DNA from: a virus
IMG/VR virus record: IMGVR_UViG_3300034096_001618
Location: 14,477 to 78,476 of that record
Length of the DNA: 64,000 nucleotides
Direction: 5' to 3' (one strand)
The notes under the pieces were generated by a model. It was not told the origin of the DNA. It saw nothing but the letters and a program-made list of their open reading frames with translations, and made no database searches. Shown in pieces: positions 9,377 through 59,079 of the stretch; the stretch's first letter is position 1; the number at the start of each line of letters is the position of its first letter. Made by a program: the position numbers and the translations under genes.

Positions 9377-10741
9377 TTATGATTCACTTCTTAATGCCTG
9401 ATAGAGATTATTGGTATCAATCGTCTTGAACAATGATTCACAACCAGTACTGTATTTTGAAGCTGGGTCTCCTTCTCCGATCATGCTGTTGACGCTCTTC
9501 CACCAAGACGATTCTTCCTTGGTGACTTTTTCATTTTCGCCATGATGTTTCTTTTTAGATTTTAAATTTCTAAGTTTTTCAAAGTCGTGATGTGTAATCT
9601 TGCCATCTGGTTTGCTTTCTGGCCCCGATACATCTAACTTTTTCTGCCCACCTTTTAACATTTTCTTCATAGAACCCATAGAACTCTTAACAGCATCTTC
9701 GCCGTCTTCTTTACCACAGCCCATTTTCTTTTTGCCATGTTTCATATACTTCATGCCTTCGTCGTCTTCTTTACCACAGCCCATTTTCTTTTTGCCATGT
9801 TTCATATACTTCATGCCTTCGTCGTCTTCTTTACCACAGCCCATTTTCTTTTTGCCATGTTTCATATACTTCATGTTTTTTTTGCTATGTTTGACAGATT
9901 CTGTTTTATTGTGACCCATTTCTTCATCATCATGTCTAGAATGCATATCACTCATGTCATCACTCATGTCATCACTCATGTCATCGCTCATGTCATCGCT
10001 CATGTCATCACCCATGTCTTCATCTTCATCTTCATGGCGACGATGGCGCATATCACCCATGTCTTCATCTTCATCTTCATGGCGACGATGGCGACGATGG
10101 CGCATATCACCCATGTCTTCGTCATCATCTTCGTCATCATCTTCGTCATCATGGTGCATATCGCCCATTTCTTCGTCTTCGTCTTCGTCTTCGTCATCAT
10201 CTTCGTCATCATGGTGCATATCACCCATTTCATCGTCATCATGATCCATGTCGCTCATTTCATCGTCATCATGATCCATGTCATCATGATCCATGTCATC
10301 ATGATCCATGTCATCATGATCCATGTCGCTCATTTCATCGTCATCATGATCATCTCTAGGAAGATCTTCATCTTCAAAGAATCTGAAGGTATTTTCGTTT
10401 TTAAGTTCTTCGTTCTTACACATTTTGCATTTTGATTTTTTCTTTTTAGAACTTGTACTATGCATAGCGCCACATTCGGGGCAAACAGACATCTTTATTT
10501 TTTTGCCTTTGTGTTTTTTATGGCCAACTTTAATTGATGGCATGTCTTTTATTTCTGCTGGCTCAACAAGGCTTGCGTCACCATACATTTTCTTGACTTT
10601 TTTCTTCATTGACTTTCCAACTTTGGCTTCCTCGAAGCCAAATTGTGATTGTATGCCAAGATTAGAAGGTTTTCCAAAACCAAGGTTAAAACTTGGAAGC
10701 ACCGATTCGTTGACCATCTTCCACTGTTTGTATGACAGCAT
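9377..10741 (-). CDS. Low-complexity Asp/His/Met/Lys-rich protein, putative internal head protein
   Basis: MLSYKQW..VNE N-terminus, CPEC, long repeats, EF-hand-like LDVSGPESKPDGKITHHDF. Confidence 0.75.
   Translation of the reverse strand: MLSYKQWKMVNESVLPSFNLGFGKPSNLGIQSQFGFEEAKVGKSMKKKVKKMYGDASLVEPAEIKDMPSIKVGHKKHKGKKIKMSVCPECGAMHSTSSKKKKSKCKMCKNEELKNENTFRFFEDEDLPRDDHDDDEMSDMDHDDMDHDDMDHDDMDHDDDEMSDMDHDDDEMGDMHHDDEDDDEDEDEDEEMGDMHHDDEDDDEDDDEDMGDMRHRRHRRHEDEDEDMGDMRHRRHEDEDEDMGDDMSDDMSDDMSDDMSDDMSDMHSRHDDEEMGHNKTESVKHSKKNMKYMKHGKKKMGCGKEDDEGMKYMKHGKKKMGCGKEDDEGMKYMKHGKKKMGCGKEDGEDAVKSSMGSMKKMLKGGQKKLDVSGPESKPDGKITHHDFEKLRNLKSKKKHHGENEKVTKEESSWWKSVNSMIGEGDPASKYSTGCESLFKTIDTNNLYQALRSES
9697..9875. 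repeat. About three tandem 60-bp repeats encoding MKYMKHGKKKMGCGKEDDEG
   Basis: Lines at 9721 and 9781 are identical; partial copies flank them. Confidence 0.95.
9947..10352. repeat. Nested short in-frame repeats (DDMS, DDMDH, DMGDMRHRRH, DEDE)
   Basis: 12- and 15-bp units and longer duplications visible directly. Confidence 0.9.
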
Positions 10742-10822
10742 GGCATTCCTCTTTCATTAAAATAGAACACGACTCATAAAACTATATATGTGGAGCATTT
10801 ATATTTTCATTAAGGATTTACC

Positions 10823-11617
10823 ATGAGAAAACTGTTAATTTCGACAGTAATTCTTTTTGGATTTTTCATTATGTTCTTAATATTGAAAAATAATCATAAT
10901 AATATACCAGAAATTGATGTTTTAAATCCAAATTTAATTGAAATTCCAGTTAGTAAAAACGAAATAGTAAATAGAATAAACAACAAAAATAAAAAAATTA
11001 ATTCTATTTTAATTAAAAATATGCCAATAAAAGCAAAAAATGGTAGAATGACATTTAAACTTACTGGTGATTTGGCTCATAGTAAAGATAAATTTTTTCG
11101 TTTCATTGTTACCAGTAAAATTACTGGCAAAGAAATGGATATCGGATCAAACAATGATATATTTTGGTTTTGGTCTAAAAGAATAAGTCCGCCAGCACTT
11201 TATTTTAGCAAACACGAAGACTTATGGAAGACAAATTTAAAAACGCCATTAAATCCAGCTTGGATGATTGAGTCTCTTAACATTAATTTAATTGATCAAA
11301 ATAATATTTCATCAATTTCAGAAGATGGTGTTTACTTGTATTTACGAGAAAAAAGAAAAACAGCCGCAGGAGATGATTGTGTATTCATAACTGTTATTCA
11401 TAAAAAATCTGAAACTGTATGGGCTAGAAAGCTTATTGATTTAAATGGCAATGGAATAGTTAGTACATTTTACAGTGGTGAAAATATAATTATTGACTGG
11501 AAAGATGAAAATGCCAGCATGGAATGGGACACAACAAATAAAGAATTAAATGTCAATTTGTCTAATTCCATGTGGCAACTACCAAAATATAAAAACAAAA
11601 TAAATATGGGTGAATAA
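10823..11617 (+). CDS. Membrane-anchored/exported hypothetical protein
   Basis: N-terminal hydrophobic helix; EMDIGSN.DIFWFW.KR..PPALYF motif. Confidence 0.75.
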   Translation: MRKLLISTVILFGFFIMFLILKNNHNNIPEIDVLNPNLIEIPVSKNEIVNRINNKNKKINSILIKNMPIKAKNGRMTFKLTGDLAHSKDKFFRFIVTSKITGKEMDIGSNNDIFWFWSKRISPPALYFSKHEDLWKTNLKTPLNPAWMIESLNINLIDQNNISSISEDGVYLYLREKRKTAAGDDCVFITVIHKKSETVWARKLIDLNGNGIVSTFYSGENIIIDWKDENASMEWDTTNKELNVNLSNSMWQLPKYKNKINMGE

Positions 11618-11618
11618 T

Positions 11619-11852
11619 TTATTTGTTTAGTGATTTTCTAATTGCGTCTCTTCTCAATGCTTGAGTTTTACGCTTTTCCGCATTGATTCCACCTGAATTT
11701 AAAGGTTGTACAGGTGTCATTGATTGATTTCTAACTTCTGTTGGCGCTCTAGTTGCGGCAATTCCTCCAGTTGCTGACCTTGCAGAAGTTATCGGTCTAA
11801 TAATTGGAGTTTTGCTTCTATTAGATATACCTTTATTACAACCACATGCCAT
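11619..11852 (-). CDS. Small basic protein with CGCN motif
   Basis: MACGCNK after GGAGG SD. Confidence 0.7.
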   Translation of the reverse strand: MACGCNKGISNRSKTPIIRPITSARSATGGIAATRAPTEVRNQSMTPVQPLNSGGINAEKRKTQALRRDAIRKSLNK

Positions 11853-14885: not shown

Positions 14886-15104
14886 ATGAATACATTTGTG
14901 AAATGGGCAGAAAAAACCAAGAAGGAGCTTCCAATTTACAGAACCGAAGAAGCTGGATCACAGAGAAGAGCAGGAATTGCATATTGGGCGTATCCTGATG
15001 CTTATGTTCGCAATCAATATCCAGACGCATATTTCACTCCTTATGCTGCTGATGCACTATTTAAATTGGGTTATGGTAAGGGCGGACCAAAGGCAGGAAA
15101 ATAA
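14886..15104 (+). CDS. Small putative internal head protein, paralog A
   Basis: MNTFVKWAE; GIAYWAYPDAY core shared with the next gene. Confidence 0.8.
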   Translation: MNTFVKWAEKTKKELPIYRTEEAGSQRRAGIAYWAYPDAYVRNQYPDAYFTPYAADALFKLGYGKGGPKAGK

Positions 15105-15106: not shown

Positions 15107-15337
15107 ATGAAAAGCTTTATTCAATGGGCTGGTGACAATAAGGCAGAATTACCAGTTTATAAACAAGATGAAGGTGGCAGTATCGTAAGGAACGGTATTG
15201 CCTATTGGGCTTATCCTGATGGATACATAAGAAGCCATTATCCTGACGCATACTTTATGAGTCGTGCTGCTGATGCACTATGGAAGATGTCACCCGGACC
15301 TCCTATTACAAAGCACAAGCATCATGTTAGTCACTAA
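15107..15337 (+). CDS. Small putative internal head protein, paralog B
   Basis: MKSFIQWAG; GIAYWAYPDGY core. Confidence 0.8.
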   Translation: MKSFIQWAGDNKAELPVYKQDEGGSIVRNGIAYWAYPDGYIRSHYPDAYFMSRAADALWKMSPGPPITKHKHHVSH

Positions 15338-16447: not shown

Positions 16448-17041
16448 TCAACGCTTTGGCCCACGTTTAAGAGGTACGGGCTTAAGCTTATCCTGATGCT
16501 TATCAGGCTGAGATTTTAGATTATGCATAATATTGATCAATTCTTTTGATATTTCAGATGCAGAATTTCCATTACATTTTTCTGATTTAACAATTGAAAT
16601 TGTGCCTCTGTCTCTATTGTAATTGCCCTTGCTCAATACAAAGCATTTATGTCCTGCGTGCCAAGTGATGCAGCCGACCCATTCTCCATTATCCCAATTT
16701 CTCGATGAAACCAATAACCTTAAAGGTGTTTCTGTATAAACATGTTTCGTGTGATAACCAGCATTTTTAAGAGCAGCACTAACATAACCCAAACAAATTT
16801 TAGCAAAACCATCAAGCGCCTCATCGCTGTTTGTTCTATAATTTACTTCAATAGAATATCTTGATCTTTCAGATGCTTCGGTCAAATTTTGCTGCTTGTG
16901 TTCTCTAAATGTCTTCATGTTTCCACATAAAGTGGCACCAAAATATTCAAGACAAACATCGAGAAATTCAGCCTTGCTCAAAGAAACAAGTTGAGTTCCA
17001 TCTAAATTTTGTTGTCTGCGCCAATCATCAAATTTTTTCAT
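16448..17041 (-). CDS. Hypothetical, putative internal head protein
   Basis: MKKFDDW N-terminus, internal MKTFRE and LTE-AS. Confidence 0.7.
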   Translation of the reverse strand: MKKFDDWRRQQNLDGTQLVSLSKAEFLDVCLEYFGATLCGNMKTFREHKQQNLTEASERSRYSIEVNYRTNSDEALDGFAKICLGYVSAALKNAGYHTKHVYTETPLRLLVSSRNWDNGEWVGCITWHAGHKCFVLSKGNYNRDRGTISIVKSEKCNGNSASEISKELINIMHNLKSQPDKHQDKLKPVPLKRGPKR

Positions 17042-17064: not shown

Positions 17065-17712
17065 ATGATACGACTAGATTTCTCAAAATGGCTAATGGCA
17101 TTAGAATCTTCTACAGTTGGAACAGAAGAAGTTAATGCTCAACAAGTAATTAGTATTTATAATAGAGTTAAAGATAGTATAGAAATTGTTAGAATGTATG
17201 ATCAAACACTTCCAGATGATAGAAAATTATTGAAAAATATATCAACAATTGTAAATTTATCTTCTGGCGCAGCATTTGGTATGTTTATAAACACTGATAA
17301 TAACAATGTTATTGGTCAAGATGTTATGCAAAAAATTCAGTCCATTTATCCTAACGACCCAATTATTGGCAAAAAGGTGCAGAAGCTGTCTAGAAAAGAA
17401 ATTTTGGATCATTTGCCAGAAGACTTAAAAAAACAAATAGATCCACGCAAAATTCAGCCAAGCGATGTCATTAAAATAAATGTACGAGGACATCTTCAGA
17501 AATATGGCGACAGTCCAGCAGCTATAATAGAAATTGCTAGCACTATTGTTCATGAGTCAACACATGTTATAGAATATGTTGAAAAAGGTGAAACATTTGA
17601 TGGCCCCGGAACTATGGTTGAAAAAGCTGAAGATGCTTTTAAATCATGGGCTAAACAAAACTGGCCAATCATTTCCAAAAAATTTAATTTACAAGGATCA
17701 TTCCCTTTTTAA
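17065..17712 (+). CDS. Zincin-type metallopeptidase-like protein, putative internal head protein
   Basis: STIVHESTH..E with downstream E; LDFSKWLMALE N-terminus. Confidence 0.7.
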   Translation: MIRLDFSKWLMALESSTVGTEEVNAQQVISIYNRVKDSIEIVRMYDQTLPDDRKLLKNISTIVNLSSGAAFGMFINTDNNNVIGQDVMQKIQSIYPNDPIIGKKVQKLSRKEILDHLPEDLKKQIDPRKIQPSDVIKINVRGHLQKYGDSPAAIIEIASTIVHESTHVIEYVEKGETFDGPGTMVEKAEDAFKSWAKQNWPIISKKFNLQGSFPF

Positions 17713-17754: not shown

Positions 17755-18342
17755 ATGAAAAACACAAATTTTGAAGCTTGGCGTGCTCGTCTCAACTGGT
17801 TCAAAGACGAGTTCCCTTTTGGCCCAATTCAACGCTTCAGGAATGAAGACGGACGGCTACATCGTGATGATGGGCCAGCACTCATTAGCCCAACTCGTAT
17901 CACATACTACCAGAACGGTAGGAAACACGGAATTGATGCCGATAAATTCGGCTCGATCAACTTTTATTACGAAAACATCAGGATTCCACCTCATTTTCAT
18001 CACAAGCCTGAAAGCTTGACTATTGATGAGGTTTTTTCTCATAGCAATGCCGAAGTTCGGTATGTGGGAATGAAAATAATTGGTTTTGATAAGGTCATGG
18101 AAGACTCAAGAACCAAAATCATTGATCAGTGCGATGACACAGGAATGGTTCTTTTCCAAATCAGTGGTATTTTTGATGAACCAATAAGTTATCTTAAAGT
18201 TATAAATAGCACACAGGAACCAGACGGTAGTTATAAAAATTACTATCTATGCATTCCTCCTGAAGCAAAAAAATGCAAAGAAGCTGTTGCATGGACATTC
18301 GGAATGAGTGCAGATGAATATCAGCCAGAACAAGAAACTTAA
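17755..18342 (+). CDS. DUF6745-like protein
   Basis: GRLHRDDGPA, NAEVR, V.NST.EPDGS.K.Y.L.IPP, AVAWTFG...EY.PE.ET (family recalled, not searched). Confidence 0.75.
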   Translation: MKNTNFEAWRARLNWFKDEFPFGPIQRFRNEDGRLHRDDGPALISPTRITYYQNGRKHGIDADKFGSINFYYENIRIPPHFHHKPESLTIDEVFSHSNAEVRYVGMKIIGFDKVMEDSRTKIIDQCDDTGMVLFQISGIFDEPISYLKVINSTQEPDGSYKNYYLCIPPEAKKCKEAVAWTFGMSADEYQPEQET

Positions 18343-18372: not shown

Positions 18373-19137
18373 ATGAAAAAATTAAACGAAATGAGATATT
18401 TGGCTGGAATACTTGATCAAAACCATTATTATGGCGAAAGCTATGATAAGGCATCAATTAAAAAAATTACTCGTAGAATTAACAGAATTATTGAAAATAT
18501 TGACAATGCAATAGAAGATGCAGCAAAATCAAAAGATCCTATTGATGATTCAAAGGAAACATCTTCTGCTGAGAGTTTTTTTCAAAAACTAAAAAAAGGA
18601 ATCGGAACTCCAGATAAAAATAATCTTAGTGGCGAATCACCAAGTGGAATCGAAAGAAAAGCAGACGCAGTTAGAAGCAAACTGGCTGAATTCAAAATAA
18701 AATTTGAACAAGCTAATCCAAAAGTTGCTAATCAATTGGAAGAAGAAGCATCAAAAGATGCTAGTATGCTAAAAGGAGAGCTTCCCGTCAAAGCAGAAAG
18801 CATTCTAGGAGTGCTTGGCAAAGGCGCTGCAATGATTGGGGGAACTATATTATGGGCAGCATGGAAAACAATTAAATTTGTATTGTTTCAAACAGTAAGA
18901 TTAATCATAAGAATTGGTAGATCACTTACCTCAGAAAAAGATCCTAAGAAGGTTTTAGGCTGGAACGTAGAAGGATTACCAAGCATGGCAACAGCTTGCT
19001 TTGCACTATTGTTTCCTTTCCTAAGTTTCTTCGCCTATGGAACTGGCCATATTGCACTTGGCGGTGGACTTCTCATTCCTTCTGGAATTTATTACGTTTA
19101 TCTTATACTTACACAATTGTTGGATTCTAAATATTAA
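18373..19137 (+). CDS. Putative virion protein with C-terminal transmembrane helices
   Basis: KLNE-MRYLAGI N-terminus; hydrophobic C-terminus; late-type box upstream. Confidence 0.7.
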   Translation: MKKLNEMRYLAGILDQNHYYGESYDKASIKKITRRINRIIENIDNAIEDAAKSKDPIDDSKETSSAESFFQKLKKGIGTPDKNNLSGESPSGIERKADAVRSKLAEFKIKFEQANPKVANQLEEEASKDASMLKGELPVKAESILGVLGKGAAMIGGTILWAAWKTIKFVLFQTVRLIIRIGRSLTSEKDPKKVLGWNVEGLPSMATACFALLFPFLSFFAYGTGHIALGGGLLIPSGIYYVYLILTQLLDSKY

Positions 19138-19143
19138 TTTGAA

Positions 19144-19190
19144 AAACTTTTTCCTCGATTTTCTTTTAGTTAATCGAGGCAAAAATTTTT
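19144..19190. terminator. Bidirectional terminator
   Basis: CCTCGATT / AATCGAGG stem between convergent genes. Confidence 0.7.
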
Positions 19191-19212
19191 AATTTATATG
19201 AAGCGCAATTGA

Positions 19213-20067
19213 CTAAGTTTCAGGGCGAAGGAATGGCTGTCCTGAAACCTGTTCATAGATAGATTTAAGAACCTGAACAATATAGAAAAGACCAGTTGCA
19301 ATTAATAACTCTGATCCTGTTGATCCGTAAATAACACCCAAAGGGATAATAACAGCAATCATTAAGTTAATCATGAATTTTATTCCCTTCCCTTCTGGCG
19401 TGAACATTTGACGCATCGTATTAAGAACAGTTCTGATTGCAACACTCAAAACGTCAATAAGAATAAATTTAATTAGTTTGAAAACTGCCATCTTTGCAAA
19501 ACTTCCGATTGCCCCGATGACTGATTCGCCAAGTCGTGGATCTCTGTCAGTCATTAAGACTTTATCAAGGAAATTTGGCTCAGTACGGGAACTAGTATAA
19601 TCATTTTTTGCAATTTGGGGGTCTCTATCAAGCATCAAGGCTTTTTCCCAAAAACTTGGCACATAAGCTTTGGCATCCATTCTTGCCATTCTTTTAATAA
19701 ATTCTGCTTCTCTTTTATTGTCGGCTTCCCAATCATAAGCTTCTTCTAAAACCTTATTGACTTTATTGTTTATTTGATCTTCTCCCTTTTTGAAATATTC
19801 TGATACAGATTGCTTTATTGAGTTAATTCTATTTTTAAACCAACCAATAACACCAATAGCTTCTTTTTTTTCTTCAGGAGTAACTGATTCATCTTGTTCT
19901 ATCAACCTAAGCCATTTATTTGAATTTTTTGCTACAGATTCTTCAAAAAGGAACGCAATTTTTTCAATAACTTCTCTTTCCCCATTCAGTTCATGTACGA
20001 TATATTCTTCTTCGTTGATGACGCCAGCAAGATAAAGAGAATAATTTTTATTTTTTTTACCTAACAT
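19213..20067 (-). CDS. Putative virion membrane protein, paralog of 18373..19137
   Basis: YLAGVINEE; ESVIG..K.IKF block; C-terminal TM helices. Confidence 0.7.
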   Translation of the reverse strand: MLGKKNKNYSLYLAGVINEEEYIVHELNGEREVIEKIAFLFEESVAKNSNKWLRLIEQDESVTPEEKKEAIGVIGWFKNRINSIKQSVSEYFKKGEDQINNKVNKVLEEAYDWEADNKREAEFIKRMARMDAKAYVPSFWEKALMLDRDPQIAKNDYTSSRTEPNFLDKVLMTDRDPRLGESVIGAIGSFAKMAVFKLIKFILIDVLSVAIRTVLNTMRQMFTPEGKGIKFMINLMIAVIIPLGVIYGSTGSELLIATGLFYIVQVLKSIYEQVSGQPFLRPET

Positions 20068-23122: not shown

Positions 23123-26044
23123 ATGTCGAAGTCTTTTAGAGAATACTTTATTCGTAAAATTAAAAAAGAAAATCTTAGTAGATTTTTTGGTTTTCGCATT
23201 GATGAAATGGCCAAAGAACAGCAACGTGTAAGAAAGTCTGTTCAGTTCGACAAAGATGATATTGAATTTTTGTATCAATTTCCTCATAATTTATGGTCAC
23301 AAGCCATGAATAAACGCTATGATTTACTTTTTGATGAAATTGAAAAGCTTCACAAAATTAAAGATGTACGACAATTTCGTGACTTAATAAAAGCAATAGA
23401 GAATTATTTAAAAGACAGAACAAGAGAAAATGCTGAAGTCCTTAAAGACATTGAAGAACCATTTGGAATGAGAGATGATGAAATTGAAACATTAAGCAAT
23501 AGCAATCCAATACAAGGCATTAGAGAATTAAGCGCCTATGAGTTAAGCGTTTTGGCAGAAAAAATTGCCAATGATCACTTTGATTCAAATAAAGAATCAC
23601 TTGTAGATGTTATTAATGATCCTAAATCAGTGATCTTTACTTTTAAAAATGTCGAATATGTTGCTGGTTCTGATAAGAAAAAAGGTGGACATAGAAGTAA
23701 AGATACGATTGATATTAAAGCTAATCCTTATTTGCTTCGTCTTTATCATAAATTAGAAAAAACTGAAGGTGAAAAGCATAATTTTCCTGAATTTTCTGGT
23801 CAGGTAGGCAAATATGGTATTGAACTAAGAGATCCTGTCAGAAATTTAACTGGCAGTGGCCCTCATTTGACTAGAAACACACAATTCCCAACAGAAAAAA
23901 ACATTAGAATTTCCATAAAAAGATTTATGGAATTAAATGGTCATAGAATGTTTGGAAATTTCGATCCTACAGATTCGACCATAAGATGGATGAATTCAGG
24001 TTATAAAGACACTAGAACACGAGCTTTTGCTGTTAAAGAATACAAAGACAATGCAAAAGTTAATTTGTATTTACGAAGAGCACTTGAATTGGCTCCAGAT
24101 GTCGATTTGAGTGAAGAAGAAGTAACTAGTGCCTTTCAAAATGCCAATGCTTTGTCTGTTGTTAGAATATTTAACAATCTTTTCGGAAAAGATCCATTGC
24201 ATAGTGCTCGTGATGTGACATCAGACGCAATAGAAACAGAAGCAATTCGTAATCTTGTGGATGATGTGCGTAGCGGTAGGCTTGATCTTCGTGGACCACC
24301 TTCTCCAAGTCATCCTGATGGCATTCCTGTTAAAATTCGACGTATTACTGTAAAAGGGGTAACTCGTGAAGACATTGATAATCCACCTCTTTTTCTGCCA
24401 TTCAAGAAAAAAATTGTAAATGTAAATGGAGTTGATCAAGAGAAATGGATTCCTTTAGTTAATCCTGCTCATTTTTACAGAAAACTCAAAGATGGAGAAA
24501 GTGCGCCAGAAGAAATGCTTCGTGGTCATAATAAAAAATTTGTCAAATCTGATGTTTATGACCCAAGTGGGAAGTCAGTTTATAGCGATGGTGGTATTTT
24601 CTTTAATCGTAACACACCCGCACAAAGAAGACTCATTAAGGGAAGACAAGAATATACGGATGCTTATCAAAAAATAATTGAAAACCAAAGACTTGTTGGA
24701 TATTCTATCGAAAAAGGCAAAGCAGTCATAAACGATGATTCTAGCCATAATATGAGAGAAGATATTTTGAGGGGTGTTTTACGTTGTGTTAATAGTCCTG
24801 ACTGTGGCGGAAAAACAGATCACGAAATAGCAATAATGTTACGTCATATTCCTCTGATTTATAAATTTTGTTTTAATCTTATTTTAAACAATCTAGATAA
24901 TAAATTACTTGAGAACCCAAAAAATATTGAGAGAGAATCCTTTAAGAATGCAAGTTTACTTTCTCAAAAAAACTGGGATCAAGGGGCTGGAACCAGAAGA
25001 ACAAGAGCATTTACAGATGAAACAAGGGCAGCAAGACAACAGCAGCCACTAAGACAGACTAGAACTCAAAACACAGGCACTAATACACATTTTCCTTATA
25101 CTACGGATAATCTTTTGGCATTCACCGATAGATTAAATCAAATAGAAAATAATGCAATAGAAGCAACAAGAAAAAAACAGCAAGCAAACATGAGGCGTAG
25201 TGAGACAGAATTAACAAAAGGAGAAATTTCCAATTTATTTGGAGATTTGATAAGAAGCGAATCTATGGTTTATGAAGATCTCATTATGATGTTAGCAACA
25301 ATAATTAGAACTAAAAATAGAAAAGAAAAAGAAGCAAGAGAAAATGCTGAATCTATTGTAAGAAATTGGTTAGATCAAAATCTAAGCATGACTGAAATGG
25401 TTTCTGCTTTTAAGAATTTAGAAATAGTTAAAAACTTTATGAATGCTTCAAAAGTTGCCACACCAGAAGCCACACCTATTTCAAAAAGACCAAATTTGAT
25501 TATTCAAAATAAAATCGATGCGGCATTGGCAGAACTTGATAAAGATGCTGGTCCTGAAGGCAATATGAAAAATCCAAAAATTATGGGTAAATTTACTTCA
25601 AGGTCAACAGGAGAATATAGTCCTTATGTTTCGACAATAAAATCAGATCTTGAGACAGATCCAGTTTTTTCCAATGATCCAGAAAATTTAACGATTGTAT
25701 TGAATCAAGTTCAAGATGCCTTAAATAAGAAAATAGGCATTTCAGCAACTGGTGCTGCTCCTACGGCTCCTCCTACTGCTCCTGTAACTGGTACTTCTTC
25801 TTCTCCAGATAAAATTGAAATAATACCAAATGCTGATTGGCGTAGTTTATTTTCTGATGTAAATCCAAAAAATTACTATAATATTGTGTTCTCCAATAAT
25901 TTTAAAACTGGGGCAACAAACAATATTATTTTAAATGTAAAATCTAGAATTCAAAAAATGCGCCCAGAATTTAACGAAGAACAATATAAAAAAATGATGG
26001 ATGAAATTTCTAAAATTCAAGAAGAAAGAAGAAAAGAGGAATAG
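23123..26044 (+). CDS. Large hypothetical protein, putative internal head protein
   Basis: 973 aa; MSKSFREYF N-terminus, IDE-MA. Confidence 0.75.
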   Translation: MSKSFREYFIRKIKKENLSRFFGFRIDEMAKEQQRVRKSVQFDKDDIEFLYQFPHNLWSQAMNKRYDLLFDEIEKLHKIKDVRQFRDLIKAIENYLKDRTRENAEVLKDIEEPFGMRDDEIETLSNSNPIQGIRELSAYELSVLAEKIANDHFDSNKESLVDVINDPKSVIFTFKNVEYVAGSDKKKGGHRSKDTIDIKANPYLLRLYHKLEKTEGEKHNFPEFSGQVGKYGIELRDPVRNLTGSGPHLTRNTQFPTEKNIRISIKRFMELNGHRMFGNFDPTDSTIRWMNSGYKDTRTRAFAVKEYKDNAKVNLYLRRALELAPDVDLSEEEVTSAFQNANALSVVRIFNNLFGKDPLHSARDVTSDAIETEAIRNLVDDVRSGRLDLRGPPSPSHPDGIPVKIRRITVKGVTREDIDNPPLFLPFKKKIVNVNGVDQEKWIPLVNPAHFYRKLKDGESAPEEMLRGHNKKFVKSDVYDPSGKSVYSDGGIFFNRNTPAQRRLIKGRQEYTDAYQKIIENQRLVGYSIEKGKAVINDDSSHNMREDILRGVLRCVNSPDCGGKTDHEIAIMLRHIPLIYKFCFNLILNNLDNKLLENPKNIERESFKNASLLSQKNWDQGAGTRRTRAFTDETRAARQQQPLRQTRTQNTGTNTHFPYTTDNLLAFTDRLNQIENNAIEATRKKQQANMRRSETELTKGEISNLFGDLIRSESMVYEDLIMMLATIIRTKNRKEKEARENAESIVRNWLDQNLSMTEMVSAFKNLEIVKNFMNASKVATPEATPISKRPNLIIQNKIDAALAELDKDAGPEGNMKNPKIMGKFTSRSTGEYSPYVSTIKSDLETDPVFSNDPENLTIVLNQVQDALNKKIGISATGAAPTAPPTAPVTGTSSSPDKIEIIPNADWRSLFSDVNPKNYYNIVFSNNFKTGATNNIILNVKSRIQKMRPEFNEEQYKKMMDEISKIQEERRKEE

Positions 26045-27528: not shown

Positions 27529-30432
27529 ATGGTTGTTCTAAGTTTTAAGAATTTTTTTGAATATTCAAATAAAAAAAATCACGAATTAAATGTCGTAAGA
27601 TTCATGGAATCAATCTTAGGTTCAGATTCAAAAGAATTTAAAAAGATATTAAGCAAGGAAGCATTTGAAGACTTAAGAAGAAAATTTGGACCAAATTTTT
27701 TAACTCATATTAGAAAAATGCAAAAAGAATTCGGCGACAAAGACTGGCGAGATACAATTAAAAGGCTATATTTCGACAATAAAGACTGGCGAGATACAAT
27801 TAAAAAGCTATATTCTCCAAAAAAAGTTGGCATAAGAACTCCATATTTAACACCATCAGAAAAAGATAGTTCTATGAAATCACAATGGCAATATGGCCAT
27901 GATGATGATGATACACTTATGCCAAAATATGTTGGCCCATTCAGTGCAGATAAGGGCAAAGATAGTGCAGATGAAGACGAAATTGAAAATGAAATTGAAG
28001 ATGAAATTGAAGATGAAATTGAAGATGAAATTGAAGATGAAGATGAAACACCATCATCTCAATCTAAAGAGGAATCTCCAGAAGACACTCGTGGTTTTGC
28101 TGGACAAATAGGTGGAATGAATTCTGTTGACAGAGCAACTATTGCTAGAATGAAAAAATATTTTAATGATGACTTTGGAATTACCAGTGATCATATTGAT
28201 ATAGTTGACGAAATTATTACAACCATCAAAAGCGTTAGAAAAAACAATGGCCTTCAGCAAAAAATTCCTTTAGATGAGCTTTTTGTTGACACTTTATATA
28301 AAATGCATGTTGTTGGTAATGGAGCTTTCAATAAAGAAAGTGATTATTACAAAAGAATCATTAGCCTACGAGGAACTGATGGTAAAATTTCTTCTGATAA
28401 CATGAAAGAAGTAAAATATATTGTCAAATCATCCGCTGAAAGTGCTGCTATAGATTCAATAAGAGATAACAAAAGAGCCACTGGAAAAGCAGTTTCTGGC
28501 GACCAAAAAAAAGGCGAAGACGAAGGAGAGCTAAGCATATTTGACTTAGAAGGCAAGAAAAGAGATTACAGCAAGGCTAGAAAATCAGATCTTGTCGGAG
28601 CAAAAGACCGACTTGGACCAGTAGAGCCTAATATAGATTTGTATAGCCTTGTATCACAATACTTAAGAACTAAAAATGATAATGATCTCAAAAATGCTAG
28701 AATCCATTTAAGACAAGAAATACAAAACGCAAGAAGAAATGGTAAAAGATTAGCAAATGAAGAAAGTTGGGTAGAAATTATTAATCAATTAATTTCTATG
28801 AAATTTTCTTTACTTGTAAAAAAATATATAGAAAAAAGTCCCAAACAATATAAAGATTTTTTAAATCTTGAATCAGAATTTAAAAAAGAACATGAAGAAA
28901 TTTATATCGGGGGGCCAGCAGCTGCACCAGAAAAAATTGGCAAGATACTTTCCAAAATAGATAAAGGTGCCATTTTAAAGCCAAAAGAAGAACATGGATA
29001 TCTACGAAACAAAAAACAATGGGAAAGTATTATAAATACATTACCAATGAAAGACGAGGAAGACAAAGAAAAAGTCAAAGAAATTCTTGATAAATTGTCT
29101 CCTCAAAGCGAACAAGATATTGAAAAATCTTTAAAAGATATTTCTCTGTTAAGACCAATTTCGTATATGAGCAATAAAGAATCAAAAATTACAAAAGAAT
29201 TTATTGATAAAGTTGTTAATGAGTTAGAAATAGAAGCTGAAGCTACAACAAAGAAGGTTCCAAAAACAGCACTTTTAAGAGCAGCAGAAATAGCTAGTTT
29301 GGTATTAGACACAAACACTAAATATAATGCGGAAAAAATTGTTCAACATTTCAAAAAACAAGGCGAAGGAAAATACGCCAGTAGAGAACCTGTGGACATA
29401 ACTCCTCTTACTGCCAATAATTACATAAAAAAGATTTATGATATAGTTGAAGAAACGCCATTTGAAATTCGTTCTGGATTTCCACCACCAAATTATGCGG
29501 GACGTGAAGGACAAGGTCGTAGAACTAAAAAGACTGATCCTGTATACCCCAACGCTCCATTTGAGTTGTCACTTAAAAATTATATCAAAAAACGAAAAGA
29601 TATGGCGCAATCAGACAGTGAATATGTAAAAAATGAAATAAAAAATACTATTGATAAAATCAAAAAACTTGAAGCAGAAGACGAAGCTTTAGTTAAAGCA
29701 AATGGAAAAAGAAAGTATGTTGTTTCAGATGGTAAAAATAGTACAGAAGTGACAATATCAGATGCAGAGGGATATCTTGGCGATCTAAGTCAATATACTT
29801 TACTGGAGCCTCTTAGAAGTCTAAAACTAAGACTTTTCAATCTACAAAGGCATCCTTCAGTTTCTATAGACGATGATGATTTTTTCAATTCTCGTCATGC
29901 AGCGGCAATTGCTCCAGAAACTTCACCTGAAGAACTAAAAAAAATCTATCCAGTTCGTGAGCCACAAACTAGAACTAACATTCCTTTAGGTGATATTAAA
30001 CAAAGAAATGAACCTATAAAAGCGCCAACAGATTATTCATCAATTCACCCAATTTATAGACAAAGACCTGATCAGGCCTCTTTACGAAAGGCCGCAATGA
30101 ATAAATATCTTTCTGGAGACGTGGACATTGATAAATATCTTTCTGGAGATGTGGGTACTCCTCCTCCTTCTTCAGGTCGAAGAAAACTTTTCCCTCAATT
30201 AACTTTCCCGAGCAAAGATGATTTAGAAAACTTTAAAAAGAATAGAAATGTTCCACCAAAATCAGACAATTTTGACATAGGTGATGATGCTCATGTGGCA
30301 CGAACATTACGGGATCTTCCTATATTTCCGACCTCGAAGACTAAATCACCTCCTATACCAGAACAATTTACAAGTCAAAGATTGCGAGGTTGGATTAGTT
30401 TGTCTGAGCATTTAAGCAGGATATATCGTTAA
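27529..30432 (+). CDS. Large hypothetical protein, putative internal head protein
   Basis: 967 aa; LSFKNFFE N-terminus; KDWRDTIK x2, EDEI repeats, KYLSGDV x2. Confidence 0.75.
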   Translation: MVVLSFKNFFEYSNKKNHELNVVRFMESILGSDSKEFKKILSKEAFEDLRRKFGPNFLTHIRKMQKEFGDKDWRDTIKRLYFDNKDWRDTIKKLYSPKKVGIRTPYLTPSEKDSSMKSQWQYGHDDDDTLMPKYVGPFSADKGKDSADEDEIENEIEDEIEDEIEDEIEDEDETPSSQSKEESPEDTRGFAGQIGGMNSVDRATIARMKKYFNDDFGITSDHIDIVDEIITTIKSVRKNNGLQQKIPLDELFVDTLYKMHVVGNGAFNKESDYYKRIISLRGTDGKISSDNMKEVKYIVKSSAESAAIDSIRDNKRATGKAVSGDQKKGEDEGELSIFDLEGKKRDYSKARKSDLVGAKDRLGPVEPNIDLYSLVSQYLRTKNDNDLKNARIHLRQEIQNARRNGKRLANEESWVEIINQLISMKFSLLVKKYIEKSPKQYKDFLNLESEFKKEHEEIYIGGPAAAPEKIGKILSKIDKGAILKPKEEHGYLRNKKQWESIINTLPMKDEEDKEKVKEILDKLSPQSEQDIEKSLKDISLLRPISYMSNKESKITKEFIDKVVNELEIEAEATTKKVPKTALLRAAEIASLVLDTNTKYNAEKIVQHFKKQGEGKYASREPVDITPLTANNYIKKIYDIVEETPFEIRSGFPPPNYAGREGQGRRTKKTDPVYPNAPFELSLKNYIKKRKDMAQSDSEYVKNEIKNTIDKIKKLEAEDEALVKANGKRKYVVSDGKNSTEVTISDAEGYLGDLSQYTLLEPLRSLKLRLFNLQRHPSVSIDDDDFFNSRHAAAIAPETSPEELKKIYPVREPQTRTNIPLGDIKQRNEPIKAPTDYSSIHPIYRQRPDQASLRKAAMNKYLSGDVDIDKYLSGDVGTPPPSSGRRKLFPQLTFPSKDDLENFKKNRNVPPKSDNFDIGDDAHVARTLRDLPIFPTSKTKSPPIPEQFTSQRLRGWISLSEHLSRIYR

Positions 30433-37302: not shown

Positions 37303-37328
37303 TATTAAAATTAAAATTTCAATTTTTG

Positions 37329-37357
37329 GCCTCGTATATAAAATACGAGGCTTTTTT
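37329..37357 (+). terminator. Intrinsic terminator between the tube paralogs
   Basis: GCCTCGTAT / ATACGAGGC plus T run. Confidence 0.85.
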
Positions 37358-37373
37358 ATTATCGAGGTTATAA

Positions 37374-38258: not shown

Positions 38259-38804
38259 TCAAGTATCGCTAACTATATTATGCCTCCTGTATAAACTTTT
38301 TGTTTTTAAAGCAGGAATTTTTTGATCAAGTTGAATTTGGATGAAATCAAGATATTTTCTTTTTAATTCATTATAATTTCTAGCTGTTCGATAAAGTTGT
38401 CGAAAATGATTTAATATACATGTTGTCATATAATTAAAAGCTTTGCCTTTTTTTGGATCAAAGCGATCAATTTTTTCAAAACATATCATTACGCCTTCTT
38501 GAACTGCATCATCTTGATCAATCAAATTAAATTTAGCGTATCTAACTATATTTTCAGAAAGAGTATAGAAGGCTATTGCCAATTCGTCTTGTGATTCTTG
38601 AAATTGAGAAGATATAATCTTAAATTCTTTTTCAGTAACAAGCCAAGATTCGGGTTTTTTAAATTGTCCACGCTTTAATACTCTTGCTTGTGTTTCAATA
38701 ATATCATCCATGAATAATTGGTATTTGATTTTTTCTTTTTTGGTTTGCTGGAATTGGACGATCAATGTTTCAAATGTTTTGTTATTAAGATATTCAGTTG
38801 CCAT
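38259..38804 (-). CDS. Truncated sigma factor, T4 gp55-like late sigma
   Basis: YLNNK, DD.VQEG...C...IDRFDP.KG.AFNY.T; only region 2 evident. Confidence 0.8.
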   Translation of the reverse strand: MATEYLNNKTFETLIVQFQQTKKEKIKYQLFMDDIIETQARVLKRGQFKKPESWLVTEKEFKIISSQFQESQDELAIAFYTLSENIVRYAKFNLIDQDDAVQEGVMICFEKIDRFDPKKGKAFNYMTTCILNHFRQLYRTARNYNELKRKYLDFIQIQLDQKIPALKTKSLYRRHNIVSDT

Positions 38805-48312: not shown

Positions 48313-48891
48313 TTACATTGCATCTAATTGACCTGTACTTCCGCCAAGTGGAGGTGCGGCCATGTCTTGTCCAGTTCCACCTACTGGCGGAGTACCCTGC
48401 TGCGCTTGATCCATTGTTTCTGGAGTTGGAGGTGCGCCTGCTGCTGCTGGCGATGCTGCTGGCTCAGACTGCGGTGGTTTTTCTGGTTTATTTTCTGTTG
48501 CCGCCGTAGTTTTAGTTTCTTTGTTTTGATCTTTAGGTGATTCAGTAGGCGTCAATTTGTTGATTGGCACACCCATATCTGCAACTAATTTTTCTAAAAG
48601 TGTAGAAACAGCACTTATTGTTCCGGGTAAATCGTTTTTTTCATCAATCGATTTCATTATTGCAACGCCTGCCTTTTGAAGAACCACAAGATTCTCTCGT
48701 TCATCTTTAGGCCAACTACTGTGCAATACACGACGAATCAAATTAACAATACGCATAGAATATTGAGTTAAATCTCGTGATCCCATATTCTGAGCATCAT
48801 CACGCAATTCTTGCAAAGCAGCAAGAATATCTCCTACTTTTTGTGCTAAATAGGCTTGTGTTTCAAATAATAAAAAATCTTTAAATCTCAT
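48313..48891 (-). CDS. Putative internal head protein with Pro/Ala/Gly tail
   Basis: MRFKDFLLFE; TATAGATA 4 nt upstream. Confidence 0.75.
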   Translation of the reverse strand: MRFKDFLLFETQAYLAQKVGDILAALQELRDDAQNMGSRDLTQYSMRIVNLIRRVLHSSWPKDERENLVVLQKAGVAIMKSIDEKNDLPGTISAVSTLLEKLVADMGVPINKLTPTESPKDQNKETKTTAATENKPEKPPQSEPAASPAAAGAPPTPETMDQAQQGTPPVGGTGQDMAAPPLGGSTGQLDAM

Positions 48892-57878: not shown

Positions 57879-57969
57879 GATCGGCTCCCTTTGATGAAAT
57901 CATGACAAAATTAATGAAAAATACAAGGATAAAATTCTTAAAATAATCAGGAAGGACATAAATAATCTG

Positions 57970-58383
57970 ATGATTAGCTTCAAACATTTTATTGAAAATA
58001 AAATAATGGTAGAACAAGGCCCACCGGGAGGAGCGCCTCCCGGTGGGCCTCCCGGTGGCGGAGCAGCACCACCACCACCTATGCCAATGCCACCTGCTGG
58101 TGGTGGTGGGCCTCCCGGTGGTGGCGGAGCACCTCCCGGCGGTACAGCAGGACAAACAGCAGCAAAAAAACTTAAAGTTTCTAATTTTTTCGATGTTGCT
58201 GAAAAAATAATTGATCCACAAAAAGAAGAAGAAAAAGAAAAAGAAGAAGAAGCACCTCAAGAGGAACCTGAAGCGGGATCTGCGCCAGCACCTGAAGCAG
58301 AAATGCCACCAGCACCAGCACCAGCGCCTGAACCTGCGGCAGGTACACCACCTGCGCCTACAGAGCAACAGCCGCCAGTTTAA
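57970..58383 (+). CDS. Pro/Gly/Glu-rich putative internal head protein
   Basis: MISFKHFIE; PPGG repeats; CATAAATA 5 nt upstream. Confidence 0.75.
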   Translation: MISFKHFIENKIMVEQGPPGGAPPGGPPGGGAAPPPPMPMPPAGGGGPPGGGGAPPGGTAGQTAAKKLKVSNFFDVAEKIIDPQKEEEKEKEEEAPQEEPEAGSAPAPEAEMPPAPAPAPEPAAGTPPAPTEQQPPV

Positions 58384-58491
58384 TTTTTGAATATTATTGA
58401 AAATTCTTCCTTTTTGCGAAGATTATTATAGGGCAAGGATGCCTTTTCAAAGTAAATCATGGTTTTCTGACGTTAAACGCATATATAAAAC

Positions 58492-59079
58492 ATGATGTCT
58501 TTTAGTCAATTTATCGAAATCAAAGAGGGTTTTGGCCCTTACATAGGACCATGCGTTGACACTGATAATTATCAGGTCCAAGGAGCTTGCAGTCAACTTA
58601 ATTCCGATTCTAAAAATGCGAAGATTAGCAAAGGCGAATACAAGCATAAGAAAAAGAAAAAACGCAATCTTAAGAACGAAGAAGCATTGGCAAATCCAAC
58701 AACAGCCGTTTCTGGGCCAAATTCCCCACTTCTTGTTTCTGGTCCTGTCGCAGATAGAGAAAAATGGAGTGCTAGCAAAAAAGATATCCTAAAATTTTGG
58801 AAAACACTTGAAGCTAATAAGCCAATTACAACAAGTCCAATTAAATATGGCTTCAAGGGATCAACATATAGCGAAGATGGAATCCGTATAACAGGAAGTC
58901 CTGCTTTTATAACAAGTGTAATAAGTCATCTTAAAGATTTCTTGGCTTATGAGAACCCACAAAGTAAGTTAGCTGTTTCGTATCGTGAAACACAATCTCC
59001 CAGCAAGATTGCAACTGGACAAAGCAAAACAAGTTATGTATTTTACATTGCAGTCAAGGACAGAGGCGACAAAAACTAA
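58492..59079 (+). CDS. Putative internal head protein
   Basis: MMSFSQFIEIKE; CATATATA 4 nt upstream. Confidence 0.75.
   Translation: MMSFSQFIEIKEGFGPYIGPCVDTDNYQVQGACSQLNSDSKNAKISKGEYKHKKKKKRNLKNEEALANPTTAVSGPNSPLLVSGPVADREKWSASKKDILKFWKTLEANKPITTSPIKYGFKGSTYSEDGIRITGSPAFITSVISHLKDFLAYENPQSKLAVSYRETQSPSKIATGQSKTSYVFYIAVKDRGDKN

What the first reader, a model, noticed from the sequence alone, without database searches (positions are those of the whole stretch)
9377..59079. Large dispersed family of genes with a capsid-targeting-like N-terminus: a candidate head-packaged/ejected protein cargo system
Seen: mostly unrelated ORFs begin with a similar motif, roughly M-x(1-4)-(F/Y)-x-x-(F/W/Y), followed by a Glu site: 9377 MLSYKQW..VNE, 14886 MNTFVKWAE, 15107 MKSFIQW, 16448 MKKFDDW, 17065 LDFSKWLMALE, 23123 SFREYF..IDE, 27529 SFKNFFE, 31008 and 31739 MKSFYEFYL.IQRE, 48313 MRFKDFLLFE, 57970 MISFKHFIE, 58492 MSFSQFIEIKE. 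Two more (18373 KLNE, 19213 VINE) have only the Glu site. Most have a TA(A/T/G)ATA late-type box upstream. Known: T4 internal proteins carry the capsid-targeting sequence MKTYQEFIAE, are cut by prohead protease gp21 after (I/L)-x-E and are injected with the DNA. Inference: a modular address tag loads a much larger and more varied cargo (protease, membrane proteins, disordered polymers, two ~970-aa proteins) than T4's three IPs.
Basis: partly seen in the sequence, partly recalled or inferred. Interest (0 to 1): 0.85.

Follow-up and report, generated by a model that had tools for sequence, protein, structure and literature searches.

The report
T4-like capsid-address tag, greatly expanded
About one gene in six of this uncultured giant lake-water phage begins with a short peptide that closely resembles the signal phage T4 uses to load proteins into its head. 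The set of proteins packed with the DNA may therefore be readable from the sequence alone, although packing itself has not been observed.

Summary
The window is part of a 78-kb fragment (about 18% complete) of an uncultured giant myovirus of the T4 superfamily from lake water.

A matrix trained only on a 55%-GC relative finds 19 such N-termini among 107 genes, against 1.1 expected. T4 itself shows far fewer.

The tag behaves as a detachable protein-level address:
- It is kept on orthologues whose bodies share only 25-40% identity.
- It is present on each half of a gene that is split in a relative.
- It is disordered in AlphaFold models, yet invariant across a family.
- It is followed by a hydrophobic-x-Glu site in 61% of cases, against 19% for controls.

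Relatives encode a T4-type portal, gp21 protease, scaffold and gp23 module, which lies just beyond the contig end. Tagged genes are strongly linked to a late-type TANATA box, often 4-5 nt before the ATG.

Best reading: an expanded T4-type capsid-targeting sequence. Packaging, cleavage and ejection are inferred, not shown. The two 'Glu-only' ORFs (18373, 19213) are not members.

This scan has reported similar tag expansions on other uncultured giant phages. I found no paper describing them.

The parts
9377..10741 (-). Tagged gene, 454 aa. It starts MLSYKQWKMVNE|S. The body is Lys-rich with an Asp/His/Glu-rich low-complexity region. It has a strong SD.
   Evidence: PWM 14.4 with the full training set. 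Orthologues in G001, G005 and G004 keep SYK.WK..NE.
14886..15104 (+). Tagged micro-protein, 72 aa. It starts MNTFVKWAE and has a YPDAY repeat core.
   Evidence: PWM 15-17. The tag is conserved in all four genomes through synonymous codon changes.
15107..15337 (+). Tagged micro-protein, 76 aa, a paralogue of the previous gene. It starts MKSFIQWAGDNKAE.
16448..17041 (-). Tagged gene, 197 aa. It starts MKKFDDWRRQQ.
   Evidence: PWM 15-17. A contig from an RNA library matches 16580-16730 (weak).
17065..17712 (+). Tagged zincin-like metallohydrolase, 215 aa. It starts MIRLDFSKWLMALE|SSTVGTE and has HExxH at residue 163.
   Evidence: A TATATA box ends 4 nt before ATG 17065. The family has 53 clusters, nearly all tagged. 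F6, W9, H163, E164 and H167 are invariant. The AF2 model has pLDDT 87, with residues 1-20 below 50. VIA-align top rows are zincins such as Wss1, YbeY and deuterolysin, Z 7-8, aligned from residue 17-20 on.
23123..26044 (+). Tagged 973-aa protein with no known family. It starts MSKSFREYF.
   Evidence: Orthologues at 41%, 27% and 25% identity all start x-SF-(R/K/A)-(E/G)-(Y/F). RNA-library contigs match 23076-24163 (weak).
27529..30432 (+). Tagged 967-aa protein. It starts MVVLSFKNFFE. The tag score is weaker than the others.
   Evidence: PWM 7.1, above the 1% threshold. The syntenic 957-aa gene of G001 is only 21% identical but starts MLDFRSWLLFTE.
31008..31652 (+). Tagged 214-aa protein rich in Gln, Ala, Pro and Thr. 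It starts MKSFYEFYLHIQRE|A.
   Evidence: The first 45 nt are nearly identical to those of 31739, and the rest cannot be aligned.
31739..32074 (+). Tagged 111-aa protein with an Ala/Pro/Gly repeat. It starts MKSFYEFYLQIQRE|A.
48313..48891 (-). Tagged 192-aa protein. It starts MRFKDFLLFE|T. A TAGATA box ends 4 nt before the ATG.
   Evidence: The L-x-E site is kept in G001, G005 and G004.
57970..58383 (+). Tagged 137-aa Pro/Gly/Ala-rich protein. It starts MISFKHFIENKIMVE|Q. A TAAATA box ends 5 nt before the ATG.
58492..59079 (+). Tagged 195-aa two-module protein. It starts MMSFSQFIEIKE|G. A TATATA box ends 4 nt before the ATG.
   Evidence: In G005 the two modules are separate overlapping genes, each with its own tag. 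G004 has only the C-terminal module, tagged directly.
17755..18342 (+). Borderline case: a DUF6745 protein starting MKNTNFEAWRARL. It has the aromatic pair but no Glu site.
   Evidence: PWM 3.4-3.9, close to the 1% threshold. Pfam DUF6745 E 4e-32.
18373..20067 (.). They are not members.
   Evidence: They have no aromatic pair and low PWM scores. They share a YLAG(I/V) motif and C-terminal hydrophobic segments.
38259..38804 (-). A gp55-like late sigma factor. It gives context for the TANATA late-type box.
   Evidence: PHROG 234 'late sigma transcription factor', E 9e-8.
33085..37877 (+). T4-type tail module: gp15-like sheath stabilizer, gp18-like sheath and two gp19-like tube proteins. All are untagged.
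   Evidence: PHROGs 227, 23 and 4542; Pfam Phage_sheath_1.

Best explanation
The tag is a T4-type capsid-targeting sequence (CTS) used on a much larger scale than in T4.

Proposed mechanism:
1. Each tagged protein is made late in infection, often from a leaderless or near-leaderless transcript that starts just after a TANATA late box.
2. Its first 9-16 residues form a short amphipathic helix. The aromatic residues at positions i and i+3 and the Leu at i+4 lie on one face.
3. The helix docks the precursor onto the scaffolding core of the prohead, which is built by the lineage's gp20-portal, gp21-protease, gp22-scaffold and gp23-capsid module.
4. After shell assembly, the gp21-family protease cuts after the Glu of a hydrophobic-x-Glu site at the end of the tag. 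This releases the tag and leaves the cargo inside with the DNA.
5. Cargo is mostly small, hydrophilic, low-complexity orphan protein. It also includes a zincin-like metallohydrolase, two proteins of about 970 aa and, in a relative, a CCA-adding-type nucleotidyltransferase.

Shown: the tag exists; it is enriched, selected at the protein level, modular, and structurally independent of the body; a cut-site motif follows it; a late-type box precedes it; relatives have T4-type head genes.

Inferred: binding to the core, cleavage, retention in the virion, and ejection into the host.
For: 1. Likeness to the T4 CTS. The T4 CTS is MKTYQEFIAE (PMC8442874; also read from T4 ipII and ipIII). Members here read MKSYQEYLAE (own contig). 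Relative G005 has MKSFRDFIAE, MKTFVEYLAE and MKSFNEYLAE.

2. T4-type head machinery. Four of five relatives found through the sheath carry Peptidase_S77 (gp21) above Pfam's cut-off. The G005 protease is 32% identical to gp21 (E 5e-23). Its capsid protein is 29% identical to gp23 (E 4e-39). The gene order is portal, protease, scaffold, capsid. A tagged small gene sits next to the portal in all four relatives. G005 is syntenic with the 5' end of this contig, so the head module lies just beyond that end.

3. Enrichment. The T4 control is much lower.

4. Selection on the protein, not the DNA. The tag is kept in a 55%-GC relative. Phe codon choice and GC3 in the tag follow each genome's own usage. 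Genes with an SD leader carry it as well.

5. Modularity. A gene split in G005 carries a tag on each half. The paralogues 31008 and 31739 share 45 nearly identical nucleotides and nothing else. Orthologues and syntenic replacements at 21-41% identity keep the tag.

6. Structural independence. In the zincin family, F6 and W9 are invariant like the catalytic HExxH. Yet residues 1-20 have pLDDT below 50 and lie outside the fold. In the SWIM-like family the tag is a short helix with pLDDT about 57. Glu11 at the junction between tag and body is invariant in 59 sequences.

7. Cut-site motif. [LIVMF]-x-E lies 5-14 residues after the first aromatic in 57 of 94 tagged proteins. The rate at internal aromatic pairs is 19% (p = 2e-18).

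8. Late expression signal. A TANATA box ends 2-9 nt before the ATG in 15 of 38 tagged and 11 of 331 untagged genes in G004 (p = 3e-10). The other three genomes give similar results. A gp55-like late sigma factor lies in the window.

9. Cargo character. About 12 of 100 tagged proteins have any Pfam domain. Tagged proteins are more hydrophilic and of lower complexity than untagged ones (p = 1e-13 to 1e-18). Tail, replication and nucleotide-metabolism proteins are untagged.
Against: - No virion proteome, no N-terminal sequencing and no cultured relative exist. Sheath identity to any isolate is under 42%.
- The protease is seen only in relatives, not on this fragment.
- About 40% of tagged proteins lack a clean hydrophobic-x-Glu site.
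- The preferred Glu offsets from the first aromatic (+5 and +8) differ from T4's +6.
- A strongly tagged CCA-adding-type enzyme in G004 is not an obvious capsid passenger.
- The homologue of the SWIM-like tagged protein in cultured phage XacN1 has no tag. It is not named among that phage's virion proteins in the main text; the figure and supplements were not checked.
- Tagged proteins do not evolve significantly faster than untagged ones. This gives no support to an arms-race view of the cargo.
Confidence: 0.7

Rival explanations
1. The tag is an address or interaction peptide for something other than the prohead core. Candidates are a phage chaperone, a degradation tag that times protein turnover, a membrane or assembly-site anchor, or another intracellular compartment.
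For: The data show only a flexible, conserved, N-terminal, protein-level interaction motif on late proteins. About 40% of members lack a clear cut site. One strongly tagged protein is a CCA-adding-type enzyme that would normally act in the cytoplasm.
Against: - Several members are near-identical to the experimentally defined T4 CTS, in a lineage with the homologous head-maturation module.
- A tagged gene is conserved next to the portal gene.
- A gp21-type site is enriched right after the tag.
- The tag has only 2-3 hydrophobic residues, too few for a membrane anchor.
Confidence: 0.15
2. The shared N-termini reflect common descent. On this view the tag is the remnant of one ancestral N-terminal domain in a fast-diverging paralogous family, not an address that each protein needs.
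For: The genes at 31008 and 31739 are recent duplicates that share 45 nucleotides. Many members are low-complexity proteins whose bodies cannot be aligned, so distant paralogy is hard to rule out.
Against: - The bodies include clearly unrelated folds: a zincin, a SWIM-like beta domain, a PolyA_pol domain and YPDAY micro-proteins.
- A gene split in G005 created a second tag on the downstream half.
- Tag residues stay invariant across families at 35-45% identity although they lie outside the fold.
Confidence: 0.07
3. The motif is a by-product of nucleotide-level constraints on translation initiation. Possible sources are AT-rich 5' coding ends or the needs of leaderless mRNAs.
For: Many tagged genes have the promoter-like box only 4-5 nt before the ATG and no SD.
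Against: - The same amino-acid motif occurs in a 55%-GC genome. Its codon choice follows that genome (TTC rather than TTT), and GC3 in the tag equals GC3 in the body.
- More than half of the tagged genes have ordinary SD leaders.
- F, Y and W are interchangeable at the second aromatic position although their codons differ.
Confidence: 0.03

Closest known systems
[quoted passage not shown] All are removed by prohead protease gp21 (Mullaney and Black 1996, as cited in PMC8442874, PMC3012670 and PMC5694885).
   Same: - Located at the extreme N-terminus and about 10-15 residues long.
- Same pattern: M-K-(S/T)-(F/Y)-x-(E/Q)-(F/Y/W)-(L/I)-x-E.
- Ends in a hydrophobic-x-Glu site.
- Shared by otherwise unrelated, fast-changing proteins.
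- The lineage has a homologous gp20, gp21, gp22 and gp23 head module.
   Different: - Scale: 15-17% of genes here (18-19 of 107 on this fragment, 27-38 per 260 kb in a relative). In T4, only two of the three IPs and seven other N-termini pass the same matrix at its 1% threshold.
- Trp is preferred at the second aromatic position.
- The Glu lies mostly at +5 or +8 from the first aromatic, against +6 in T4.
- Many genes are leaderless behind a late box, whereas the T4 ip genes have SD leaders.
- Cargo reaches 970 aa and includes enzymes.
- There is no experimental evidence here.
Processed head and ejection proteins of the giant phages phiKZ, 201phi2-1 and SPN3US (PMC5694885, PMC7411985).
   Same: These are giant phages whose gp21-family protease processes many internal head proteins after Glu. 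The propeptides are thought to target proteins to the prohead. The virion carries a large and varied protein cargo.
   Different: Their propeptides are mostly longer than 100 residues and are not a shared short motif. The cut sites are (S/A/G)-x-E. Those phages belong to a different lineage without a T4-type scaffold. Here the tag is a short sequence common to all members.
Phage P1 DarB N-terminal packaging signal (PMC9024508).
   Same: An N-terminal peptide (the first 30 residues) is sufficient to send a large protein, or a reporter, into the capsid for delivery to the host.
   Different: The P1 signal is described for DarB, within a stepwise Dar assembly pathway. It has no shared consensus across dozens of proteins and no sequence likeness to the tag here.
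Encapsulin cargo-loading peptides (from my own knowledge, not tested here).
   Same: A short terminal peptide docks diverse cargo onto the inner face of an HK97-fold shell.
   Different: These peptides are usually C-terminal. They are not removed by a protease. The shell is a cellular nanocompartment, not a virion.

Membership tests
T4-type capsid targeting sequence (CTS) | Short peptide at the extreme N-terminus of the precursor | tested here: met
   High-scoring matches sit almost only at real gene starts. Of 20 ATG-ORFs scoring above 9 among 958, 16 are real gene starts or their alternates. Homologue families carry it as an N-terminal add-on before the conserved body.
T4-type capsid targeting sequence (CTS) | Sequence resembles MKTYQEFIAE | tested here: met
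   The T4 sequence was read from AF158101 and from PMC8442874. Members here include MKSYQEYLAE, MKSFRDFIAE and MKTFVEYLAE. However, the lineage matrix gives T4 IPIII, IPI and IPII only modest scores (5.3, 5.0 and 3.1; only the first two pass the 1% threshold of 3.8), because Trp and Phe are preferred here.
T4-type capsid targeting sequence (CTS) | Ends at a gp21 cleavage site, (L/I)-x-E | tested here: inconclusive
   [LIVMF]-x-E follows in 57 of 94 tagged proteins, against 19% in controls (p = 2e-18). The P3 residue is Leu in 26, Phe in 18, Ile in 6. The junction Glu is invariant in one family. About 40% have no clean site. Actual cleavage is untested.
T4-type capsid targeting sequence (CTS) | The phage encodes a gp21-family (Peptidase_S77) prohead protease and a scaffolding core | tested here: inconclusive
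   Absent from this 18%-complete fragment. Present above cut-off in 4 of 5 relatives, together with portal, scaffold and a gp23-like capsid protein. Synteny places the module just beyond the contig's 5' end.
T4-type capsid targeting sequence (CTS) | Shared by otherwise unrelated cargo proteins (modular) | tested here: met
   Distinct folds are shown.
T4-type capsid targeting sequence (CTS) | Sufficient to load a protein into the prohead, and removed during maturation | not testable with these tools
   This needs virion proteomics or reporter fusions in a cultured member. None is known.
phiKZ/SPN3US-type long propeptides | Propeptides longer than 100 residues with (S/A/G)-x-E sites and no shared short consensus | tested here: not met
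   Tags here are 9-16 residues long, share one consensus, and have Leu or Phe at P3. The comparison is taken from PMC5694885.

The most novel reading that the evidence does not exclude
A whole clade of uncultured giant T4-superfamily phages writes its packaged proteome into the genome as a readable N-terminal code. Some 15% of genes would be loaded into the capsid through one short tag and delivered with the DNA, perhaps 50-70 proteins per genome of about 430 kb. This cargo would include enzymes such as a zincin-like hydrolase and a CCA-adding-type enzyme. Expression would be wired to leaderless late transcripts. The clade would reach the published 595-kb genome LR756511.1, where the same tag and box occur at lower density. 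If true, the injected effector set of uncultured phages could be predicted from sequence alone.
Probability: 0.45. Interest if true: 0.8.

Novelty: new variant of a known kind. Interest (0 to 1): 0.6.

Why it matters
T4's capsid-targeting sequence is the textbook way to load proteins into a phage head. It is known for a handful of T-even proteins that disarm host restriction.

Here the same kind of tag marks roughly one gene in six in a widespread lake phage and its relatives. If it works as in T4, three things follow.
- It gives a sequence rule for listing the proteins that a giant uncultured phage carries into the cell. Most of these are orphans, and they are candidates for early takeover and anti-defence functions.
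- It shows how giant capsids may be filled with protein.
- It offers natural variants of a tag already used to package foreign proteins in T4 nanoparticles.

The link to leaderless late transcripts is an unexpected regulatory feature in its own right.

Tried and rejected
- PHROGs and Pfam on the tagged proteins gave almost nothing.
- The ESM Atlas gave no usable hit for the 973-aa protein.
- Foldseek against the PDB found nothing significant for either AF2 model. Only the VIA-align wide search showed a consistent zincin signal for 17065-17712.
- A DNA search of phage records found no close relative. The sheath protein search found no cultured relative above 42% identity.
- A search of five relatives with the T4 gp55 sequence found nothing. 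A PHROG profile did find a late sigma factor in the window.
- XacN1 ORF253 is the only homologue of a tagged protein in a cultured phage with a virion proteome. It lacks the tag and is not mentioned among virion proteins in the main text, so it could not serve as a test.
- RNA-library contigs of run X20 match parts of 16448-17041 and 23123-26044. One contig begins at 23076, just after a TATATAT box. Contigs cannot show transcription or a 5' end, and DNA carry-over is possible. The very high depth at 9668-10334 comes from a GAT-type low-complexity repeat that matches unrelated organisms.
- Tagged proteins were not significantly more diverged than untagged ones, so I dropped the idea that they evolve faster.
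- Chance, composition and translation-signal explanations were rejected.

Full report
**What the DNA is**

The window is bases 14477-78476 of a single 78,476-bp IMG/VR virus contig with no terminal repeat. CheckV rates it 18% complete, which implies a genome of roughly 400 kb or more. GC content is 34%.

The window encodes a T4-type contractile tail:
- a gp15-like sheath stabilizer at 33085-34071;
- a gp18-like sheath at 34291-36675;
- two gp19-like tube proteins at 36709-37877;
- a baseplate hub protein at 41363-42508 (PHROG 150 'baseplate hub'; Pfam T4_baseplate).

It also encodes a gp55-like late sigma factor at 38259-38804. The N-termini of other ORFs suggest ribonucleotide reductase, a CTP synthase and a DNA polymerase, but these were not checked. 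One Pfam ribonucleotide-reductase hit is consistent with 51307-52950.

No cultured phage is close. The best sheath match to an isolate is under 42% identity. Nineteen lake-water metagenome runs from 2020-2024 hold at least half of the sampled words of this stretch.

Yes. I called genes with a simple codon and SD model that knows nothing about the motif.

For the minus-strand genes the N-terminus is at the high coordinate: 10741, 17041 and 48891. Six or seven more members lie on the same contig upstream of the window. One of them starts MKSYQEYLAE.

- The loose pattern hits 23 of 108 genes. Internal positions predict 4.8. Shuffling residues 2-20 gives 7.8 +/- 2.6.
- With a following Glu the count is 17, against 1.9-3.5 expected.
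- To avoid circularity I trained a position matrix only on relative G004, which has 55% GC. It scores 19 of 107 N-termini of this contig above the 1% threshold set by internal windows (1.1 expected), and 10 above the 0.1% threshold (0.11 expected).
- Of 958 ATG-started ORFs on both strands, 20 score above 9. Sixteen of these are real gene starts or their alternates.
- T4 has the same GC content and served as the control. With the Glu pattern it gives 9 of 242 genes against 5.9 expected. With the matrix it gives 10 and 3 of 242 at the two thresholds.

The consensus is M-(K)-(S/T)-F-(K/R)-(Q/E)-(W/F/Y)-L-E-x-x-E.

They share a different motif and C-terminal hydrophobic segments.

**The lineage and its head genes**

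The sheath protein retrieved 38 related viral contigs. Five larger ones became handles G001-G005.

Four of these five carry Peptidase_S77, the T4 gp21 family, above Pfam's cut-off. Around the protease lies a T4-type head module: portal, protease, scaffold and major capsid protein. The G005 protease is 32% identical to gp21 (E 5e-23). Its capsid protein is 29% identical to gp23 (E 4e-39).

A small tagged gene (MKTF..YV..RE) sits next to the portal gene in all four relatives. T4 keeps its core-protein genes 67 and 68 between the portal and protease genes, which is a comparable position.

G005 is syntenic with the first genes of this contig. The head module of this phage therefore most likely lies just beyond the contig's 5' end. 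The fragment itself has no protease or capsid gene.

**The tag is a protein-level, modular, detachable element**

1. It occurs at a similar rate in all four genomes studied: 17-39 pattern hits against 2-6.5 expected. This includes the 55%-GC genome.
2. Codon choice inside the tag follows each genome's own usage, and GC3 in the tag equals GC3 in the body. Selection therefore acts on the amino acids.
3. Orthologues keep the tag while their bodies diverge.
   - The 973-aa protein is 41%, 27% and 25% identical to its orthologues, and all are tagged.
   - The syntenic partner of the 967-aa protein is only 21% identical, yet it starts MLDFRSWLLFTE.
4. The gene 58492-59079 is a single gene here and in G001. 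In G005 it is two overlapping genes, each with its own tag (MISFKEWLKSIEE and MKSFRDFIAEQE). In G004 only the C-terminal module exists, tagged directly.
5. The paralogues at 31008 and 31739 share 45 nearly identical nucleotides at the start and cannot be aligned beyond that. This recalls the conserved CTS of the variable T-even internal proteins (PMC3012670).
6. Two wide families show the tag as an add-on.
   - In the SWIM-like family, 88 of 120 clusters carry the aromatic pair. The Glu at the junction between tag and body is invariant. AlphaFold gives a confident body (pLDDT 84), while the tag is a short helix with pLDDT about 57.
   - In the family of 17065-17712, nearly all 53 clusters are tagged. 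F6 and W9 are invariant, like the catalytic His, Glu and His. Yet residues 1-20 have pLDDT below 50 and lie outside the fold.
   - Residues that are invariant but play no part in the fold point to binding of another molecule.

**Cut site and expression**

A [LIVMF]-x-E site lies 5-14 residues after the first aromatic in 57 of 94 tagged proteins. At internal aromatic pairs the rate is 19% (p = 2e-18). The P3 residue is mostly Leu or Phe. Orthologues keep the site, for example FLL(F/N/Q)E and W(L/K)..(I/L/V/M)-x-E|S.

The capsid protein of the relatives has LLE and MNE sites at residues 41 and 48, where T4 gp23 is cut.

Tagged genes are tied to a TANATA box.
- In G004 the box ends 2-9 nt before the ATG in 15 of 38 tagged genes and 11 of 331 untagged genes (p = 3e-10).
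- G001, G005 and this contig give p = 2e-7, 0.003 and 0.005.
- The same box sits 14-22 nt upstream, followed by an SD, on other genes. It therefore behaves as a promoter element.
- It resembles the T4 late promoter TATAAATA, seen upstream of T4 alt.
- Many tagged genes would thus give leaderless mRNAs. The T4 ip genes, by contrast, have SD leaders.

**What the cargo is**

About 12 of 100 tagged proteins from the four genomes have any Pfam domain. Some of those are likely false positives of the 1% threshold.

Tagged proteins are shorter, more hydrophilic and of lower complexity than untagged ones. Examples are Ala/Pro repeats (31739), Pro/Gly repeats (57970) and Asp/His/Glu runs (9377).

The protein at 17065-17712 has a zincin-like fold. 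The top VIA-align rows are almost all HExxH metallohydrolases, with Z 7-8.

A strongly tagged protein of G004 carries a PolyA_pol (CCA-adding type) head domain.

Tail, replication and nucleotide-metabolism proteins are untagged.

**Comparison with what is known**

In T4 the CTS targets IPI, IPII and IPIII into the scaffolding core. Comparable short propeptides are found on Alt and gp24. All are removed by gp21. Foreign proteins fused to the CTS are packaged (PMC8442874, PMC3012670, PMC5694885).

Giant phiKZ and SPN3US phages process many head proteins, but through long and dissimilar propeptides. Phage P1 has an N-terminal packaging signal on DarB.

Only 21 papers in the searchable library contain the phrase 'capsid targeting sequence'. 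None deals with uncultured giant phages.

The same tag and box also occur, more sparsely, in the published 595-kb genome LR756511.1. Five of 298 genes in the 150 kb I examined pass the 0.1% threshold.

Earlier agents of this scan reported similar expansions on other uncultured giant phages. Those are unchecked notes, not independent evidence.

**Verdict**

The tag is best explained as a T4-type capsid-targeting sequence used on about one gene in six. This is a new variant of a known mechanism. Loading, cleavage and ejection remain to be shown.

Noticed in passing
window 17041-17065, 48891-48910, 57950-57970, 58470-58492; also L001 and relatives G001, G004, G005: A TANATA box ends 4-6 nt before the ATG of many genes that have no Shine-Dalgarno sequence. 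On other genes the same box lies 14-22 nt upstream, followed by an SD. This suggests leaderless late mRNAs from a T4-late-like promoter. It holds in a 55%-GC relative and in LR756511.1.
   Followed up: partly
window 38259-38804 (-): A gp55-like late sigma factor (PHROG 234, E 9e-8). A search with the T4 gp55 sequence itself found nothing in the relatives.
   Followed up: partly
homologues of window 17065-17712 (P0122, P0123, P0126, P0128, P0131): A 262-aa subfamily has a basic, Cys-containing insert of about 46 residues between tag and body. The insert is flanked by Glu-ended sites that vary between members (for example L-R-E|S and Y-L-E|Q in P0122), as if it were an extra cleavable module.
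   Followed up: no
L001:4210-4743 (-) and L001:3647-4210 (-): The tagged SWIM-like protein and its upstream neighbour. In the cultured Xanthomonas jumbo phage XacN1, an untagged homologue of the SWIM-like protein (ORF253) also has an upstream neighbour (ORF254), and this pair lies next to the large terminase gene. Whether the two upstream neighbours are homologous was not tested. The AF2 model (pLDDT 84) has no PDB match by Foldseek.
   Followed up: partly
L076:6090-7373 (-) in relative G004: A 427-aa protein with a strong tag (MSFKTFLENEEE) and a PolyA_pol (CCA-adding type) head domain starting at residue 41. It is a known enzyme family carrying the tag.
   Followed up: no
window 43515-46508 (+): An adjacent pair: a protein with a PHROG 'ATPase' match (and a weak, below-cut-off Pfam AAA_7 hit), followed by a protein with a DUF2201_N putative metallopeptidase domain and a weak, below-cut-off VWA-like DUF2201 hit. 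PHROGs labels the second one 'HNH endonuclease', which looks like a mislabel.
   Followed up: no
window 10150-10212: A GAT/GAC-type low-complexity repeat inside the acidic region of the 454-aa tagged gene attracts contigs of unrelated organisms from RNA libraries. Depth there is meaningless.
   Followed up: yes
L001:2018-2590 (-): A LAGLIDADG homing endonuclease gene (PHROG 11023, E 9e-13) lies among the tagged genes near the 5' end of the contig.
   Followed up: no
T4 record AF158101, 18966-19130 (-): T4 gp61.1 (54 aa, hypothetical) starts MKTFKEFIKEDM. This is the best match in T4 to the lineage matrix, better than the internal proteins themselves. It may be an unrecognised CTS-bearing protein or a coincidence.
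   Followed up: no
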